Positions 8,038-56,647 of a DNA stretch of 64,000 nucleotides are shown here, one piece after another. Position 1 is the first letter of the stretch. Every line of letters begins with the position of its first letter. The notes beneath the pieces are model-generated. The model saw only the letters and a program-made list of their open reading frames with translations. It had not been told where the DNA came from and did not search any database. Made by a program: the position numbers and the translations under genes. Source of the DNA: a virus; IMG/VR virus record IMGVR_UViG_3300010399_000001, positions 1 to 64,000 of that record, one strand, 5' to 3'.

Positions 8038-8997
8038 TCAGAGCAGGTGGGTGACGTGATAGAGGACCACCAGGTCCAGACCGAAGACCCAGTGCAGGAA
8101 GGTGCCGAGGCAGGCCATCACGACTCGCTCGACCCAGATGCCGGAGACCACGCCGAGAACGAAGATGACGATGATCAGATCCCAGCTGACGTGACGCCCC
8201 GGCCGTCCGACTGCGGGCATGATCTGGGTCTGACCGTCATTCGACGCGGCCTCCACCAGTCGCAGCACGTACTGCTCCATGCCCGGCTGGTCGTCGTCGG
8301 TCATCTCGCGATAGCGCGCCACCACGTCGTTGATGGCGTCCTCGACCGTGGTCTCCAGCAGGTCGGCGTAGATGCGCACCCTCTGCGGCAGATCGTCGGA
8401 CGTTGCGACCACGGCGCTGGCGGCCTGCTCCAGCGCCTCGGCGCGGGCGGTGACCAGCCTGGGGTCTACCGGCTCCAGGAGGGTCAGGATCGCATCAACC
8501 TGCTCGGCGCGAGGTTCGTCGATGACCGGGACCTCGCCATCGGTGTAACGGGAGTGCGGCTGGTCTTCGACACCCCACGCGGCGATGATCCGCTCGGCCA
8601 CCGCGACGATCTGAGAGTAGCGGCCGTCCTCGACCTCGGACCAGCGACCGTGGGTGACGTGGAACTCACCGTGCTCCTCGGTCACCGCGCTAGGCCAAGC
8701 CTGAACCAAGATCCCGACGACACCCTCGCTCGGGACGATCAAGATGTCGCCGTCCTTGACATCATCGTCGTACTGCGAGATGTCGTAGGCGTCGCGAGTC
8801 GAGTTGTAGAGCCGCGCGACGACTTCGCGCTCCACGTAACGGGTGACCGTCTTGGCGGGGTCGAAGTCTTCGCTGAACTCGAACTCCTTGTGCGTCAGCA
8901 CAGCGCCGACCGAAAGGCGGATCTCGGGCACGCTGCCGTTGATCGCCGCACGGATCTCCGCCACGATGTTGTCGACCTTGGTGTCGGTCTCGGTCAT
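8038..8997 (-). CDS. Hypothetical protein with C-terminal transmembrane segments
   Basis: 319 aa; promoter motif at 9039. Confidence 0.65.
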   Translation of the reverse strand: MTETDTKVDNIVAEIRAAINGSVPEIRLSVGAVLTHKEFEFSEDFDPAKTVTRYVEREVVARLYNSTRDAYDISQYDDDVKDGDILIVPSEGVVGILVQAWPSAVTEEHGEFHVTHGRWSEVEDGRYSQIVAVAERIIAAWGVEDQPHSRYTDGEVPVIDEPRAEQVDAILTLLEPVDPRLVTARAEALEQAASAVVATSDDLPQRVRIYADLLETTVEDAINDVVARYREMTDDDQPGMEQYVLRLVEAASNDGQTQIMPAVGRPGRHVSWDLIIVIFVLGVVSGIWVERVVMACLGTFLHWVFGLDLVVLYHVTHLL

Positions 8998-9333
8998 GAT
9001 CGCCAGCCTTTCTCGTCGCGCGCCCCTTGCGCGCTAGCGAGCATCGTAGCATACGGCGCGATGCCTGCGGACCCCGGCAGGCCAAGATCTTTGCGACCCG
9101 GCGCGCGAGGCAGCTTTAAATGCACGCATGCGCGCGATAGCAGATCCGCCCCCGCGCATGCACGAGGCTCCCTCAAGATCTTTACCACTCATGATCCACA
9201 GCGACCAAACGCCGTGATGATCTAGTCGTAGCAGGTTGAGACTGTAAGTCGCCGGCCCCTTACGTCACTGTCTTTAGTTAACGGCAAGCCGGCCGGTTCT
9301 CGACGCACAAGATCAACTGGCAACCGAGTCCAA

Positions 9334-9433
9334 GATCAACAGTCGACTCTCTATGCGCCCACTCGGCCGGGAGGGGTGGTGGTGTTTATATATAGAGGGC
9401 GGCCAGCGTGTTTTCAAAATGGCTACCAGCGTG
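9334..9433. repeat. Dispersed non-coding element, copy 2
   Basis: Same ordered blocks as 3639-3760. Confidence 0.8.
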
Positions 9434-9548
9434 CAGCTCCTGGCATGGCGACAGCCCCGGACGGGGGGGAAGACCGGGGCTGTCCAAGTAGCGCAGGGAG
9501 CGCCTTGCCATCCGGCCCGAGGGGTTTAAGCCGGATGGCCTCAGCGTA

Positions 9549-39090: not shown

Positions 39091-39172
39091 TGGTGCCGGG
39101 GACGGGGTTCGAACCCGCACTGGGGCTGTGGCTTTTGAGACCCGCCGCCTCTGTTAGTTGGGCCACCCCGGC
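39091..39172 (-). tRNA. tRNA-Leu(CAA), atypical
   Basis: GCCGGGG/CCCCGGC acceptor with ACCA end; T-loop GGTTCGAACCC; loop CTCAAAA; D-loop lacks GG and the anticodon stem is weak. Confidence 0.7.
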
Positions 39173-47000: not shown

Positions 47001-47132
47001 CGGGCTGGGCAGGACTCGAACCTGCCTAGGCGGGCCGTCGCCCTATTTGGCCACCCTGGTAGTGGGGAATCGAACCCCTCCTGCTCGCCGAGAGCACGCC
47101 GGAATCGAACCGGCTACCTTTCCATTCAGCCC
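47001..47132 (-). ncRNA. tRNA-like RNA with three T-arms
   Basis: GGGCTG/CAGCCC closing stem; T-arms at 47098-47114, 47064-47078 and 47009-47025. Confidence 0.65.
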
Positions 47133-47135
47133 TAG

Positions 47136-47227
47136 AGCCCATGGCAGGATTCGAACCTGCGATGAGGGGTCATGACTTCCCTCTCGGCACCGGGGACCCG
47201 ATGCCCGACCGCCTGCGGTCCATGGGC
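47136..47227 (-). ncRNA. tRNA-like RNA (non-canonical D and anticodon arms)
   Basis: GCCCATG/CATGGGC acceptor, GCAGG-TTCGAAT-CCTGC T-arm, three internal hairpins with no canonical anticodon loop. Confidence 0.6.
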
Positions 47228-47998: not shown

Positions 47999-48373
47999 CT
48001 ACTCCCAGAGCGCTTTGTATGAGCCCTCGGATGTAAGGAGCCTGAAACCCTTGCCGTGGATACGGGCAGGTATGGCTCGTGAGTCCTGACCTGAATAAAG
48101 AAGGTAACCGTCCTGGTATGCCTGACTCCTGTTGGATTCCAGAGCGCCATGGCAGCCGGTGGTACCGCTGCCGCATACCAGCATCAGGTTGGAGGGATCA
48201 TTGATCATAGGATCGGACGTGCCGCCCATCCTTCGCGGCTTGCGATGGTGGACGGAGACCATACCGATGTTCACGTCCTTGCCGCATATCTCGCAGCACC
48301 CCATCGCGCGTCCCCATACAGACGAGCGCACCACCTGACTCGGCCCTGTGGGTGCCTTGCGACGCCTCAGCAT
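47999..48373 (-). CDS. HNH endonuclease
   Basis: CEICG...HHRKPR...NLMLVCG...CHG. Confidence 0.85.
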   Translation of the reverse strand: MLRRRKAPTGPSQVVRSSVWGRAMGCCEICGKDVNIGMVSVHHRKPRRMGGTSDPMINDPSNLMLVCGSGTTGCHGALESNRSQAYQDGYLLYSGQDSRAIPARIHGKGFRLLTSEGSYKALWE

Positions 48374-48928: not shown

Positions 48929-49324
48929 TCACACCATTTCCAGCCCAGCGGACTTCAGTGCGGCCTGATACAGCTGGCCGTATTCGTCGCGGTGGCGCTC
49001 ACGCAGCTCGGCGAGGGCGCGATACTGGGCAGCGGAGCGAGCGGATCGCCGCTCGCGCACTTGATCATCGGTGGCGTACATCGCCACCCGATCGGCTTCC
49101 TTCGCCCGCGTCTTTACGGTGGAGGTAGCCTTCCGGCGGTTGCGCTGGTGCTCCTGCTGGCAGGGGATGCACCACGAGTGACGGCGAACCTGGCCGGTCT
49201 TGCGGTCCTGAATGGTCCTGAACATCTTGAGCGGCTTAGGGTCGCCGCACTTGGTGCACTTCTTCTTCGCGCCCTTACTCTGACTATCAGTCAGATCCTG
49301 GGTGCGATCCAACACTTCGGTCAT
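48929..49324 (-). CDS. Zn-ribbon protein
   Basis: KKCTKCG...WCIPC. Confidence 0.55.
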   Translation of the reverse strand: MTEVLDRTQDLTDSQSKGAKKKCTKCGDPKPLKMFRTIQDRKTGQVRRHSWCIPCQQEHQRNRRKATSTVKTRAKEADRVAMYATDDQVRERRSARSAAQYRALAELRERHRDEYGQLYQAALKSAGLEMV

Positions 49325-54873: not shown

Positions 54874-54880
54874 AAAGGCA

Positions 54881-55033
54881 TGGTAGCGCCCGAGATCAGA
54901 AGTCGGTGGCGGTGTTTTCAGTCTTATGCTCTACCTGACTGAGCTACCCCACCCGAAGGCGGGGGCAGGATTCGAACCTGCGACCGTAAGATTAGCAATG
55001 AAGTATCCGTCACCTGCGCTTCGGGCGCTGCCA
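54881..55033 (-). ncRNA. Y RNA unit 7 (YrlA-like permuted tRNA domain)
   Basis: Scaffold CCGAAGCGCAG/GATACTTC/TGATCTCGG; T-arm, then TTCG-capped acceptor stem, then D-arm; TAAGA-CTGAAAA remnant. Confidence 0.85.
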
Positions 55034-55040
55034 AAACCTT

Positions 55041-55127
55041 TCCCGAGATCAGTGTGAATGGCGGTATTATGCCTCGAACTACCATGTGAAGGTTATTGAG
55101 AAGTAACCGTCATTCTGCGCTTCGGGA
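55041..55127 (-). ncRNA. Y RNA unit 6 (short; hairpin with TTCACAT loop)
   Basis: Same scaffold motifs and terminal stem. Confidence 0.8.
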
Positions 55128-55140
55128 TGAAGCCTTTGGT

Positions 55141-55250
55141 CCCTCCGAGATCAAGATGGCGATGGAGAGCGGGACTTGAACCCGCAGAATTCCGTTGCTT
55201 AGACAGAATCATTCAACCAATGAAGTAACCATCACCTGCGCTTCGGAGGG
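55141..55250 (-). ncRNA. Y RNA unit 5 (non-permuted D/anticodon/T arms ending in GCCA)
   Basis: Same scaffold; ATTCTGT-CTAAGCA-ACGGAAT arm; GCGGG-TTCAAGT-CCCGC T-arm. Confidence 0.8.
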
Positions 55251-55262
55251 TGAAGCAGTAGA

Positions 55263-55417
55263 TATGGACATCCCCGAGATCGAGTCGACCAAGGTAACGT
55301 TAGGCGCTTTAGGCCACTAAGCTACCCCCGGATGAGCCCAGGGGGCAGGATTCGAACCTGCGATCTCCCGCTCCCAATGCGAAGTAACCCTATGTCTGCG
55401 CTTCGGGAATGTCCATA
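55263..55417 (-). ncRNA. Y RNA unit 4 (YrlA-like, ATTGGGA loop)
   Basis: Scaffold plus anticodon stem-loop, T-arm, closed acceptor stem and D-arm. Confidence 0.85.
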
Positions 55418-55428
55418 ACAAAGCAGGG

Positions 55429-55576
55429 GATGCGGTCCCGAGATCAATTCGGCTGGGAGGTGTTTAACGTGCTGCCATTGCACCACCGGCCCAGGAGTGG
55501 ACCGGACAGGATTCGAACCTGCATCTCTCCATTAGAAGTGAAGTAACCCCTTATGCCTGCGCTTCGGGGCCGCATC
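55429..55576 (-). ncRNA. Y RNA unit 3 (YrlA-like, CTTCTAA loop)
   Basis: Scaffold plus CTTCA-CTTCTAA-TGGAG, T-arm, closed acceptor stem and D-arm. Confidence 0.85.
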
Positions 55577-55605
55577 TTCTCATTCTCTATTCAGTTGTGA
55601 AAAGC

Positions 55606-55738
55606 ATCCCGAGATCAAGCCGGTGAACGAAAGCGCATTGGACCACTCTGCCACGACCTGCCTGCACTAGTCAGACAGGCGCTGGGATTCGAACCCAGGT
55701 TCTCTGTGAGAAGTAACGCTCAACCTTCGCTTCGGGAT
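55606..55738 (-). ncRNA. Y RNA unit 2 (YrlA-like, class II-type D-arm)
   Basis: Scaffold; CTGGG-TTCGAAT-CCCAG T-arm; long acceptor stem; GGCAGAGTGGTCCAATGC. Confidence 0.85.
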
Positions 55739-55749
55739 ATGAAGTTTGA

Positions 55750-55830
55750 CAGCTCCGAGATCAAGTCGATGCCAGGCGTTGGTGTCTAATTTACAGTTAG
55801 AAGTAACCCGGCTTCTTCGCTTCGGAACTG
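55750..55830 (-). ncRNA. Y RNA unit 1 (minimal; TCTAA-CTGTAAA-TTAGA stem-loop)
   Basis: Same scaffold carrying a single 5-bp stem with a 7-nt loop. Confidence 0.8.
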
Positions 55831-55835
55831 AGACT

Positions 55836-55864
55836 AAGCTACCGTGCTCATCGGCTAAGTGCAA
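55836..55864 (-). promoter_or_regulatory. Sigma70/HrdB-type promoter for the Y RNA array
   Basis: TTGCAC-17 bp-TAGCTT, ending 5 bp before the first unit. Confidence 0.7.
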
Positions 55865-55867
55865 GTC

Positions 55868-56647
55868 CTAACTGATGTGCCTGGCGAAGAACGCGGCGAT
55901 CTCGTGGGTGTCCTCGTCCGGTACCGACGCCAGGAAGCATCCTGCCACAGTGAGGGCTGAGTCCAGATCGTCATTAGCCAGAGCCGTGGCGATCTCGTAC
56001 CCGGTAAACGAGACTCCGTCGATGCTCAGACCCCCATACGGAGCGGGCCCCGAGCTGGCGATCGCCGCCTTGGCCAGGCTGATCAGAACGCCGAGCTGGG
56101 TGTTCATCAGCCCGTCCGTACCAATCAGCGCCCTCCAGATCTTCTTGAAGGACTCCATGTCGTCCTTGGCCGACACAAGCTCCTGGTAGGCGATGTTGGA
56201 GGTCTCGGCGGAGTTGTGCGCGACCTCCTCCATGATCGGGCGCAACATGCTGATCAGCGCACCGAACAGCAACCGGGCGTTACCCTGCGGGTTGGCCTCG
56301 ACATACCGCCAGATCATGTCGCCGAACACCTTGCTGTTCTCGGGCGAGGGCGTATTGCGCGCCATGTCTAGGAACGGCGGCACGTCCTTGGCGATCTGCG
56401 AGTAGTGCGCCTGATCCTGATTCAGGAACTCCACCGCCTTCTCGTTTGTATAGTCCTTGCCGACCCATACGCACAGCGCGCCGATAGAGCCCATGACCTT
56501 GAACTTCGCGGCCGGGTCCCCCTTCAGGGCGTTCGCCTCATTCAGGCCCCACCATGCAGAGCAGGCGAGCATCCCTTCGTCGCCGCTGTAGAAGCGGTAC
56601 ATGAGAGAACGTATCTCTTCGGCGAGATCTCCATGCGTCGTCCCCAT
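55868..56647 (-). CDS. Hypothetical helical protein
   Basis: ORF between the ParB-like gene and the RNA array. Confidence 0.55.
   Translation of the reverse strand: MGTTHGDLAEEIRSLMYRFYSGDEGMLACSAWWGLNEANALKGDPAAKFKVMGSIGALCVWVGKDYTNEKAVEFLNQDQAHYSQIAKDVPPFLDMARNTPSPENSKVFGDMIWRYVEANPQGNARLLFGALISMLRPIMEEVAHNSAETSNIAYQELVSAKDDMESFKKIWRALIGTDGLMNTQLGVLISLAKAAIASSGPAPYGGLSIDGVSFTGYEIATALANDDLDSALTVAGCFLASVPDEDTHEIAAFFARHIS

What the first reader, a model, noticed from the sequence alone, without database searches (positions are those of the whole stretch)
47001..47132. tRNA-like RNA with three T-arms
Seen: inside a GGGCTG/CAGCCC closing stem lie three GGTTCGA-T-CC T-arms. Two of them, plus a TGCTC/GAGCA hairpin, are enclosed by a GGTAG/CTACC helix, and the third sits in the canonical position before the 3' acceptor strand. 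There is no anticodon arm. Inference: a multivalent T-loop RNA (possibly with interdigitated T-loops, as in RNase P, T-box RNAs and the L1 stalk), which could bind tRNA elbows or act as a sponge for elbow-binding proteins.
Basis: partly seen in the sequence, partly recalled or inferred. Interest (0 to 1): 0.7.

Follow-up and report, generated by a model that had tools for sequence, protein, structure and literature searches.

The report
Phage tRNA mimic with three T-arms
This 130-base stretch of a soil phage encodes a small folded RNA that keeps the outer frame of a tRNA, carries three copies of the tRNA "elbow" arm and has no decoding loop; it belongs to a widespread phage RNA family that I could not find described, and its job is untested.

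Summary
It follows tRNA-Asp and a second aberrant tRNA-like RNA in a complete 115-kb phage genome.

It is not tRNA debris. A covariance model built here finds 45 members at 67 bits or more in IMG/VR phage contigs, three more in later scans, and relatives in seven cultured Streptomyces phages such as Comrade. Six helices covary strongly: the acceptor stem, three T-arms, a D-arm-like hairpin and a 4-bp hairpin. 87% of cells are paired, against 45-50% when the partners are slid.

Thirty-two of 45 members sit inside tRNA gene clusters, always co-oriented and often 1-5 nt from a tRNA. No Rfam family matches, and ARAGORN of 45, both partial.

Three conserved GG motifs change or disappear together with particular T-loops, so each T-loop probably forms its own elbow.

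My best reading is a tRNA-processed, non-decoding RNA that displays three tRNA elbows and engages tRNA-binding factors. Phages carrying it encode Ro60 more often (11/45 against 2/43). Function is untested.

The scan has noted other tRNA-shaped phage RNAs, but not this family.

The parts
47001..47132 (-). Whole RNA gene (about 131 nt plus a discriminator G at 47001); member of the three-T-arm phage family ('Fam-A')
   Evidence: Model R1 scores it 129.6 bits, E 5.5e-36, full length. No Rfam or ARAGORN call.
47127..47132 (-). 5' strand of the acceptor stem (GGGCTG)
   Evidence: Pairs with 47007-47002. All six pairs covary in 45 sequences (helix 1: 12-30 double changes per pair).
47122..47123 (-). 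GG1: conserved GG in the unpaired AATGG after the acceptor stem; proposed D-loop mimic that pairs with the loop of T-arm 3
   Evidence: G in 37 and 38 of 45 members, and not part of any search pattern. It is lost in L396 and L379, where the T3 loop has U55->G. The pairing itself is an inference.
47114..47118 (-). GGTAG, 5' strand of the local helix P2
   Evidence: Complementary to 47062-47058 in this copy. Not conserved as a pairing: the best helix across the family is no better than shuffled, and RNAalifold omits it.
47099..47113 (-). T-arm 1 (CCGG / TTCGATT / CCGG, with a possible fifth pair G47114-C47098)
   Evidence: The stem covaries (helix 4, 96% paired).
47082..47096 (-). Hairpin H (TGCTC / TCGGC / GAGCA); D-arm-like, with GG2 at 47089-47088 in the loop
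   Evidence: The stem covaries (14-22 double changes per pair). The loop GG is conserved in 40 and 38 of 45 members.
47064..47078 (-). T-arm 2 (GGGG / TTCGATT / CCCC)
   Evidence: The stem covaries and is 100% paired (helix 6). It is absent in three members, which also lack a free GG3.
47058..47062 (-). CTACC, 3' strand of the local helix P2
   Evidence: See the entry for the P2 5' strand.
47054..47055 (-). GG3: conserved GG in AGGGTGG after T-arm 2; proposed partner of the T2 loop
   Evidence: G in 39 and 45 of 45 members. In L165 the T2 loop has C56->U and the GG here reads GA.
47030..47052 (-). Conserved core: GGC, then the AAATA bulge, then the P4 hairpin (GGGC / GACG / GCCC), then GCC
   Evidence: The A-A-U-A positions are 40-45 of 45. 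P4 covaries (helix 8, 94% paired). The outer GGC/GCC pairing is only 70% paired, so it is weak.
47008..47026 (-). T-arm 3 with a 6-bp stem (GGCAGG / TTCGAGT / CCTGCC), in the canonical position next to the 3' acceptor strand
   Evidence: Covaries (helix 9, 95% paired). A 6-bp acceptor plus a 6-bp T stem gives the 12-bp stack of a tRNA minihelix.
47002..47007 (-). 3' strand of the acceptor stem (CAGCCC); G47001 is the likely discriminator; no CCA is encoded

Best explanation
The stretch is a real gene for a non-decoding tRNA mimic. It belongs to a widespread phage RNA family of about 130 nt.

Shown:
- An acceptor stem and an adjacent T-arm form a tRNA-type minihelix.
- No D stem follows the acceptor stem, only an unpaired segment with a conserved GG, as in the tRNA-like domain of tmRNA.
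- Where the anticodon arm would be, there are two further complete T-arms separated by a short D-arm-like hairpin with GG in its loop.
- A third conserved GG and a conserved AAAUA-plus-hairpin core precede the last T-arm.

Inferred:
- The RNA is transcribed with the neighbouring tRNA-Asp and cut out by the host's tRNA-processing enzymes (RNase P at the 5' end, tRNA 3' trimming and CCA addition).
- Each T-loop docks on its own GG element (T1 with the hairpin loop, T2 with GG3, T3 with GG1), so the RNA displays three tRNA elbows on one molecule.
- With no anticodon and no conserved acceptor identity, it cannot decode. It most likely binds, titrates or recruits factors that recognise the tRNA T-arm or elbow, whether host factors or phage RNA-repair and quality-control factors.

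The target is unknown. The confidence given is for the whole statement including the functional inference. That it is a real structured RNA gene family I rate at about 0.93.
For: Family and covariation: R1 finds 45 full-length members at 67-135 bits in IMG/VR contigs, plus L396, L379 and L485. On the 45-sequence alignment 87.3% of cells are paired, against 45-50% with slid partners. There are 410 double-changed cells against 53-101, and 0 of 500 shuffles reach any measure. RNAalifold independently recovers the acceptor stem, T1, H, T2, P4 and T3.

Cross-validation of features: members fetched by a pattern that needed only three T-arms carry the AAUAGG..CGC core. Members fetched by a pattern that needed only that core plus T3 mostly carry T1, H and T2.

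tRNA-like processing context: 32 of 45 members have tRNAs within 3 kb, all on the same strand and none opposite. Twelve lie 1-5 nt from a tRNA. Standalone copies are flanked by hairpins. No promoter or terminator signal lies between tRNA-Asp and this RNA.

Elbow inference: three GG motifs that were not in any search pattern are conserved in 37-45 of 45 members. There are four co-changes. L182, L200 and L191 lack T2 and lack a free GG3. L165 has T2 C56->U together with GG->GA. L396 and L379 have T3 U55->G together with loss of GG1. L183 has a degenerate T1 and no hairpin H.

Non-decoding: ARAGORN of 45, both partial, and Rfam gives nothing on nine members. The acceptor pairs vary freely and the discriminator varies: A 24, T 12, G 8, C 1.

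Phage-specific so far: no match among 93 bacterial pattern hits or in 151 Actinomycetes genomes. The positive control worked.
Against: - There are no expression data: no RNA run was listed for this DNA. Mature ends, CCA addition and modifications are unknown.
- The T-loop/GG docking rests on a few lineage-level co-changes, not on statistics, and the T1 variant in L191 (C56->A) has no visible partner change.
- The alignment used for counting pairs was fitted to the model, which inflates the percentage paired.
- The invariance of the T-loops and of AAUAGG partly reflects the search patterns.
- No binding partner is identified, and no neighbouring protein gene is conserved.
- The inner closing helix seen in this copy is not a family feature, so the global fold is open.
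Confidence: 0.48

Rival explanations
1. It is an accessory RNA of the phage's Ro60 (Rsr) RNA-surveillance and repair module, working like or alongside the Y RNAs. For example, it could bring the same tRNA-binding partner that the tRNA-like domain of YrlA is thought to engage.
For: - This phage encodes a TROVE/Ro60 protein (54843-53179), a PNKP (53039-52077) and an array of Y-RNA-like modules about 6-8 kb upstream on the same strand.
- TROVE is found in 10 of 44 other family-bearing records, against 2 of 43 control phage records that also carry multi-T-arm or tRNA clusters. Counting this phage, that is 11/45 against 2/43, Fisher p = 0.014.
- In L071 the TROVE gene is about 1.2 kb away.
- Comrade has a Ro-like protein, an RNA ligase and a PNK in the same region.
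- YrlA also combines a T-arm with a D-arm in permuted order (PMC4201824).
Against: - 34 of 45 records, including 11 of the 18 complete genomes, have no TROVE gene.
- The RNA lacks the Ro-binding stem and the CGAA-type motif seen in the window's own Y modules.
- Rfam YrlA does not match it.
- RtcB is present in only 1 of 45 records.
- Related phages inflate the count: Comrade-like records appear three times.
Confidence: 0.2
2. It is mainly a processing or stability element. Its tRNA-like minihelix would make RNase P and 3' trimming enzymes cut the long phage transcript at fixed points, or protect neighbouring RNAs, and the released RNA would have no function of its own.
For: - It lies between tRNA-Asp plus a second tRNA-like RNA and the start of the next ORF, 30 nt downstream, with no terminator in between.
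- Family members abut tRNAs.
Against: A minihelix alone would be enough for that job. Selection also keeps two inner T-arms, the hairpin, three GG motifs and the AAAUA core across very diverse phages of 44-70% GC. Thirteen members are standalone, with no tRNA within 3 kb.
Confidence: 0.1
3. It is an aminoacylatable, non-decoding tRNA-like RNA. A synthetase that ignores the anticodon (Ser, Leu or Ala type) would charge it, and it would donate or sequester an amino acid outside the ribosome's normal decoding.
For: - The acceptor/T minihelix is intact.
- A hairpin sits where class II tRNAs carry the long variable arm.
- The discriminator is A in 24 of 45 members and G here.
- Annotators labelled the Comrade copy tRNA-Ser.
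Against: - No acceptor-stem identity element is conserved. Pair 3:70 reads GC, AU, UA or GU, so there is no fixed G:U.
- The discriminator is variable and no CCA is encoded.
- The tRNA-Ser label covers only the 5' two-thirds and is a software artefact.
Confidence: 0.07
4. One reading: the T-loops interdigitate with each other, as in RNase P, T-box stem I and the L1 stalk. They would form a platform that stacks on the elbows of real tRNAs, so the RNA would bind tRNAs.
For: T-arm 1 and T-arm 2 are close together in one junction. Interdigitated T-loops are the known RNA solution for recognising elbows (PMC4810234).
Against: The known platforms use 5-nt T-loop motifs inside internal loops, not full T-arms. 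Here each T-loop has a conserved GG candidate partner that changes with it, which fits self-contained elbows better.
Confidence: 0.05
5. It is a set of decayed tRNA gene fragments, or remnants of integration sites, with no function.
For: It sits next to a tRNA gene and is made largely of tRNA-type parts. Folding energy alone is not exceptional (z = -1.8).
Against: There are 45 or more homologues with the same architecture and compensatory changes in six helices. There is no integrase context, and near-identical soil contigs show no change inside it.
Confidence: 0.02

Closest known systems
tRNA-like domain (TLD) of tmRNA (ssrA)
   Same: The ends pair into an acceptor stem stacked on a canonical T-arm. 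There is no D stem, only an unpaired stretch with GG after the acceptor stem, and the anticodon arm is replaced by other RNA. This comparison of frames rests on my knowledge of tmRNA.
   Different: - There is no fixed G3:U70 alanine identity pair.
- There is no tag reading frame and there are no pseudoknots.
- It is 130 nt, not about 350 nt.
- It has two extra T-arms.
- ARAGORN finds no tmRNA here, and the Rfam tmRNA models give only 12-bit T-loop scraps.
YrlA-type Y RNAs of bacteria and phages (Rfam RF02553; Chen et al. 2014, PMC4201824)
   Same: These are non-decoding RNAs that imitate the upper half of a tRNA, with a T-arm followed by a D-type GG loop in permuted order. They occur in phages and co-occur with Ro60. 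This window carries both kinds.
   Different: - There is no Ro60-binding stem.
- The ends form an acceptor stem instead.
- It has three T-arms, not one.
- RF02553 does not match it.
- Most carriers have no Ro60 gene.
Phage T4 stable RNAs species 1 and 2 (rnaC, rnaD)
   Same: They are small stable RNAs of unknown function encoded inside a phage tRNA cluster on the tRNA strand. rnaC ends in a T-arm plus an acceptor-like 3' strand.
   Different: They are not homologous by the model (best 20 bits, covering only the 3' part of rnaC). They have no extra canonical T-arms.
Interdigitated double T-loop motif (RNase P specificity domain, T-box stem I, 23S L1 stalk; PMC4810234)
   Same: Several T-loops act in one RNA in connection with the tRNA elbow.
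   Different: Those motifs recognise the elbows of other tRNAs and are embedded in internal loops. Here, full T-arms with their own GG partners appear to build elbows.

Membership tests
tRNA (Rfam RF00005; ARAGORN) | Acceptor stem stacked on a T-arm with a canonical T-loop | tested here: met
   6-bp acceptor stem plus 6-bp T-arm 3 with loop TTCGAGT. Both helices covary.
tRNA (Rfam RF00005; ARAGORN) | D-arm and anticodon arm with a 7-nt loop; detected by tRNA models | tested here: not met
   No D stem and no anticodon loop. ARAGORN gives no call. There is no RF00005 match even at E <= 10. ARAGORN of 45 members, both partial.
tmRNA (RF00023, RF01850, RF04321) | tRNA-like domain without a D stem | tested here: met
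   Read directly from the sequence. The comparison with tmRNA rests on my own knowledge.
tmRNA (RF00023, RF01850, RF04321) | G3:U70 pair, tag-peptide frame, pseudoknots, model match | tested here: not met
   Pair 3:70 is G-C here and variable in the family. ARAGORN finds no tmRNA in the genome. The only Rfam matches are 12-bit fragments.
YrlA / Y RNA (RF02553) | Terminal stem that binds Ro60 (the conserved CGAA-type helix seen in this phage's own Y modules) | tested here: not met
   The motifs of the 54903-55870 modules are absent. There is no RF02553 match, whereas the true modules score 25-50 bits.
YrlA / Y RNA (RF02553) | Encoded next to a Ro60 gene (within 4 kb in Chen et al. 2014) | tested here: not met
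   It lies about 6 kb from rsr here. TROVE is in 11 of 45 carrier records, enriched over 2 of 43 controls but not general.
YrlA / Y RNA (RF02553) | Binding to Ro60 protein | not testable with these tools
   Needs immunoprecipitation or a gel shift.
Interdigitated T-loop platform | Two T-loops each inserting a base into the other's gap, forming a flat stacking face | not testable with these tools
   No RNA 3D prediction was available. The indirect evidence (GG partners) argues against it.
Three-T-arm phage family defined here (model R1) | Acceptor stem, GG1, T1, GG-loop hairpin, T2, GG3, AAAUA plus 4-bp hairpin core, T3 | tested here: met
   129.6 bits over the full model, the second-best score of all members. 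Every element is present.

The most novel reading that the evidence does not exclude
The RNA is a new class of phage counter-defence or takeover RNA. One molecule would present three tRNA elbows and jam a multimeric or multi-site tRNA-recognising machine. Candidates are an oligomeric tRNA-targeting defence nuclease or transferase, or the ribosome's elbow contacts. It could instead hand damaged tRNAs to the phage's Ro60 and repair enzymes.
Probability: 0.12. Interest if true: 0.85.

Novelty: new variant of a known kind. Interest (0 to 1): 0.66.

Why it matters
Phage tRNA clusters have been known since T4 to hold stable RNAs of unknown function. This finding defines one such family precisely, with a model, a covariation-backed structure and about 48 members. 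The family is widespread and missing from Rfam, and cultured Streptomyces phages carry it, with part of the gene labelled tRNA-Ser in five of the seven records. Because cultured phages such as Comrade have it, its expression, processing, partners and knockout phenotype can be tested directly. If the three-elbow reading holds, it is an unusual multivalent form of tRNA mimicry. It could show which host or phage factors read the tRNA elbow during infection and how that connects to phage Ro60 and RNA-repair modules. It also gives phage annotators a practical correction.

Tried and rejected
1. Relatives through the downstream ORF (46984-46325): nine loci were found, but none has the RNA at the syntenic place.
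2. BLAST of the 501-nt region against cultured phages found only tRNA-Asp. The 132-nt query later found the Streptomyces phages.
3. A conserved neighbouring protein: all-against-all BLAST of 438 flanking ORFs gave no cluster present in more than 4 of 45 loci.
4. Expression: no RNA holder was listed for this DNA. The contigs of three soil DNA runs show no variant inside the element, so they gave no extra covariation.
5. Bacterial genomes: the core pattern hit mostly ordinary tRNA-Arg(CCT) genes, and no family member was among them.
6. A third pattern (T-arm, gap, core) in viral and metagenome contigs was swamped by tRNA arrays and added only three members.
7. The P2 helix as a family feature was rejected.
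8. Homology to T4 rnaC or rnaD was rejected.
9. Linkage to tmRNA: only 3 of 44 loci have a tmRNA nearby. The tmRNA_permuted hit in L127 merely borrows the last T-arm next to a true tmRNA.
10. RtcB co-occurrence: 1 of 45.
11. Pfam, PHROGs, NCBIfam and PDB searches on the neighbouring ORFs gave no function for the genes immediately flanking the RNA.
12. Literature searches found no description of the family. This does not prove there is none.

Full report
**Where it is.** The window is the first 64 kb of a complete 115,046-bp virus record with direct terminal repeats, about 63% GC, assembled from soil. Genes here run on the minus strand, and the finding must also be read on that strand. In transcript order the locus holds:
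- a canonical tRNA-Asp(GTC) at 47327-47254 (ARAGORN; Rfam 75 bits);
- a 27-nt spacer;
- a 92-nt aberrant tRNA-like RNA at 47227-47136 (Rfam tRNA 27.2 bits, just under the cut-off; fold z = -3.8);
- three bases later, the reported element at 47132-47001;
- 30 nt further on, the start of an ORF of unknown function.

No promoter-like or terminator-like site separates these RNAs.

**Check of the observation.**
- GGGCTG/CAGCCC closes the molecule.
- Three T-arm motifs lie at 47111-47101, 47076-47066 and 47022-47012.
- TGCTC/GAGCA forms a hairpin between the first two T-arms.
- GGTAG/CTACC can enclose these three hairpins.
- The last T-arm abuts the 3' acceptor strand.
- There is no anticodon arm.

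The motif GGTTCRANTCC occurs 11 times in the window against 0.18 expected. The other copies belong to tRNA-Asp, to the neighbouring tRNA-like RNA and to a Y-RNA array. The minimum-free-energy fold is not exceptional (z = -1.8), so the sequence alone cannot decide whether this is a gene.

**It belongs to a family.**
- A scan of IMG/VR for three closely spaced T-arm motifs returned more than 119 contigs. Inspection showed a recurrent architecture identical to the window's.
- I aligned 25 of them (A1) and built covariance model R1.
- R1 finds 45 full-length members at 67-135 bits, with the window at 129.6 bits. tRNAs and other T-arm RNAs score below about 58 bits.
- A second scan keyed only on the conserved core and the last T-arm recovered members that mostly also have T-arms 1 and 2. 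Members from the first scan, which did not require the core, carry it. The two halves of the architecture therefore validate each other.
- A later scan added L396, L379 and L485.
- BLAST of the 132-nt element finds about 72% identical copies in seven cultured Streptomyces phages: Stigma, Moab, Patelgo, Comrade, SparkleGoddess, Belfort and Karp. In Comrade the 5' two-thirds is annotated tRNA-Ser(tcg), which is an artefact.
- None of the 93 bacterial pattern hits I scored was a member. R1 found nothing in 151 sampled Actinomycetes genomes, while the same pipeline recovers the window's copy. The family was thus found only in phage sequence among what I searched.

**Structure.** On the 45-sequence model alignment (A2):
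- 87.3% of cells form standard pairs, against 45-50% when the 3' partners are slid by 1-3 columns.
- 410 cells carry changes on both sides, against 53-101 in the slid controls.
- None of 500 shuffles reaches the observed values.
- The acceptor stem (12-30 double changes per pair), T1, the hairpin H, T2, the 4-bp hairpin P4 and T3 are each supported. RNAalifold predicts the same six helices on its own.

The alignment was fitted to the model, which favours pairing, but the margin is large.

The best helix between the corresponding segments averages 3.8 bp, against 4.1 bp in shuffles, and AT-rich members have an A/U linker there. The short GGC/GCC pairing around the AAAUA bulge is weak (70% paired).

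In many members, including this one, a 6-bp acceptor stem and a 6-bp T stem keep the 12-bp stack of a tRNA minihelix.

**Elbows.**
- Three GG dinucleotides that were in no search pattern are conserved. One follows the acceptor stem (37 and 38 of 45), one is in the loop of hairpin H (40 and 38 of 45), and one follows T-arm 2 (39 and 45 of 45).
- In tRNA, G18 and G19 of the D loop dock on positions 55 and 56 of the T loop to form the elbow (established; reviewed in PMC4810234).
- Four lineage-level co-changes link particular T-loops to particular GGs:
  - The three members without T-arm 2 (L182, L200, L191) also lack a free third GG.
  - L165 has C56->U in T-arm 2, and GG->GA at the third site, unlike its close relatives.
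  - L396 and L379 have U55->G in T-arm 3 and have lost the first GG that their relative L062 keeps.
  - L183 has a degenerate T-arm 1 and no hairpin H.
- These cases are few and not a statistic. One T1 variant (L191, C56->A) shows no partner change.
- Together they favour three self-contained elbows (T1 with the hairpin loop, T2 with GG3, T3 with GG1) over T-loops that interdigitate with each other.
- The order 'T-arm, then GG element' is the permuted order found in the tRNA-like domain of YrlA (PMC4201824).

**Context.**
- Thirty-two of 45 members have tRNA genes within 3 kb, all on the same strand and none on the opposite strand. Twelve lie 1-5 nt from a tRNA, as in co-transcribed tRNA operons.
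- Thirteen members are standalone and are often bracketed by hairpins.
- No neighbouring protein family is shared.
- This phage encodes a TROVE/Ro60 protein, a PNKP and, upstream of rsr, an array of Y-RNA-like modules. One module scores 50 bits on Rfam YrlA.
- Prompted by this, I tested co-occurrence. TROVE is present in 10 of 44 other carrier records and in 2 of 43 control records, which are phages with other multi-T-arm or tRNA clusters. Counting this phage gives 11/45 against 2/43, Fisher p = 0.014. Among genomes at least 90% complete it is 7/18 against 1/15.
- RtcB is not associated (1 of 45).
- The enrichment is moderate, is not corrected for relatedness, and leaves most carriers without Ro60.

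**What it is not.**
- It is not a tRNA.
- It is not a tmRNA: there is no tag frame and no fixed G3:U70, and no model matches.
- It is not a YrlA: there is no Ro-binding stem and no RF02553 match.
- It is not T4 rnaC or rnaD.
- Rfam 15 has no match for this copy or for eight other members.
- Full-text searches found no paper describing it.
- Earlier notes of this scan describe other tRNA-shaped phage RNAs with non-decoding inserts. A sequence look-up found this family only in this window.

**Mechanism.**
- Shown: this is a conserved, structured, non-decoding RNA gene embedded in tRNA transcription units.
- Inferred: it is released by tRNA-processing enzymes, it forms three elbows, and it acts by binding factors that read the T-arm or elbow.
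- I rate 'real RNA gene family' at about 0.93 and the multivalent elbow-mimic function at about 0.45-0.5.
- The rivals are a Ro60/repair cofactor (0.2), a processing or stability element (0.1), a chargeable non-decoding tRNA (0.07), a binder of tRNA elbows through interdigitated T-loops (0.05) and debris (0.02).

**Verdict.** This is a new family within the known kind of phage and bacterial tRNA mimics. It is interesting because it is widespread, is partly labelled tRNA-Ser in cultured phages, and can be tested in culture.

Noticed in passing
window 47136-47227 (-): A second aberrant tRNA-like RNA lies between tRNA-Asp and the three-T-arm RNA. It has a perfect 7-bp acceptor stem and a T-arm, but three GC-rich hairpins in place of the D and anticodon arms. 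One hairpin has a 10-nt loop containing CAU. Rfam tRNA scores it 27.2 bits (cut-off 29) and the fold z-score is -3.8.
   Followed up: partly
window 54880-55870 (-), upstream of the TROVE gene 54843-53179: An array of about six Y-RNA-like modules. Each has the motifs CCCGAAGCG.. / GGTTACTTC, a T-arm, an acceptor-like hairpin or D-arm, and TTGATCTCGGG. Rfam YrlA scores them 50, 28 and 25 bits, all below its cut-off of 69, and one module was called tRNA at 30.6 bits. A PNKP gene (53039-52077) follows rsr.
   Followed up: partly
own genome G000:C1 96850-96960 (-) and 98270-98400 (-), outside the window: Two more non-canonical tRNA-like elements lie near tRNA-Met. One is a cloverleaf whose 'anticodon' hairpin has only a 4-nt loop. 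The other has a canonical T-arm plus a T-arm-like hairpin. The phage has only three true tRNAs (Asp, Met, Asn) but at least four such mimics.
   Followed up: no
loci L039, L014, L025, L036, L038, L049, L051-L053, L058, L086, L101, L111, L124, L126, L129 and others: A second recurrent phage family with two T-arms, usually starting right after a tRNA. Its layout is AAGGTC, T-arm, a short hairpin with a GTGGT loop, the motif GTCTGGTGAGAAG, then a second T-arm. It resembles the inner domain of the family studied here and scores 37-50 bits on R1.
   Followed up: no
loci L123, L125, L173, L179, L047/L100, L066, L090: Variants keep the same outer frame (acceptor stem, AATGG, the AATAGG..CGC core and the last T-arm) but have only one inner T-arm or other inserts. 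The frame therefore seems to accept different cargo.
   Followed up: partly
L338 (Streptomyces phage Comrade NC_048728) 8985-9066 and 9215-9492: The family member is partly annotated as tRNA-Ser(tcg), which looks like a mis-annotation repeated in sister phages. A true tmRNA gene lies about 100 nt downstream. A Ro-like protein, an RNA ligase and a polynucleotide kinase are in the same 18-kb region.
   Followed up: partly
L091 2048-2126 (-): An element of about 80 nt lies directly upstream of the family member. It has a 7-bp acceptor stem and a T-arm but no anticodon arm, and it scores 30 bits on Rfam tmRNA (cut-off 47). It may be a minimal tRNA-like-domain RNA.
   Followed up: no
window 39094-39172 (-): A weak tRNA match (31.6 bits, barely over the cut-off) that ARAGORN does not call. 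It overlaps ORFs and could be another tRNA-like element or a chance hit.
   Followed up: no
window 47999-48373 (-) and 48929-49324 (-): An HNH endonuclease-like ORF and an endonuclease VII-like ORF lie just upstream of the RNA cluster. This recalls the homing endonucleases found in other phage tRNA regions.
   Followed up: no
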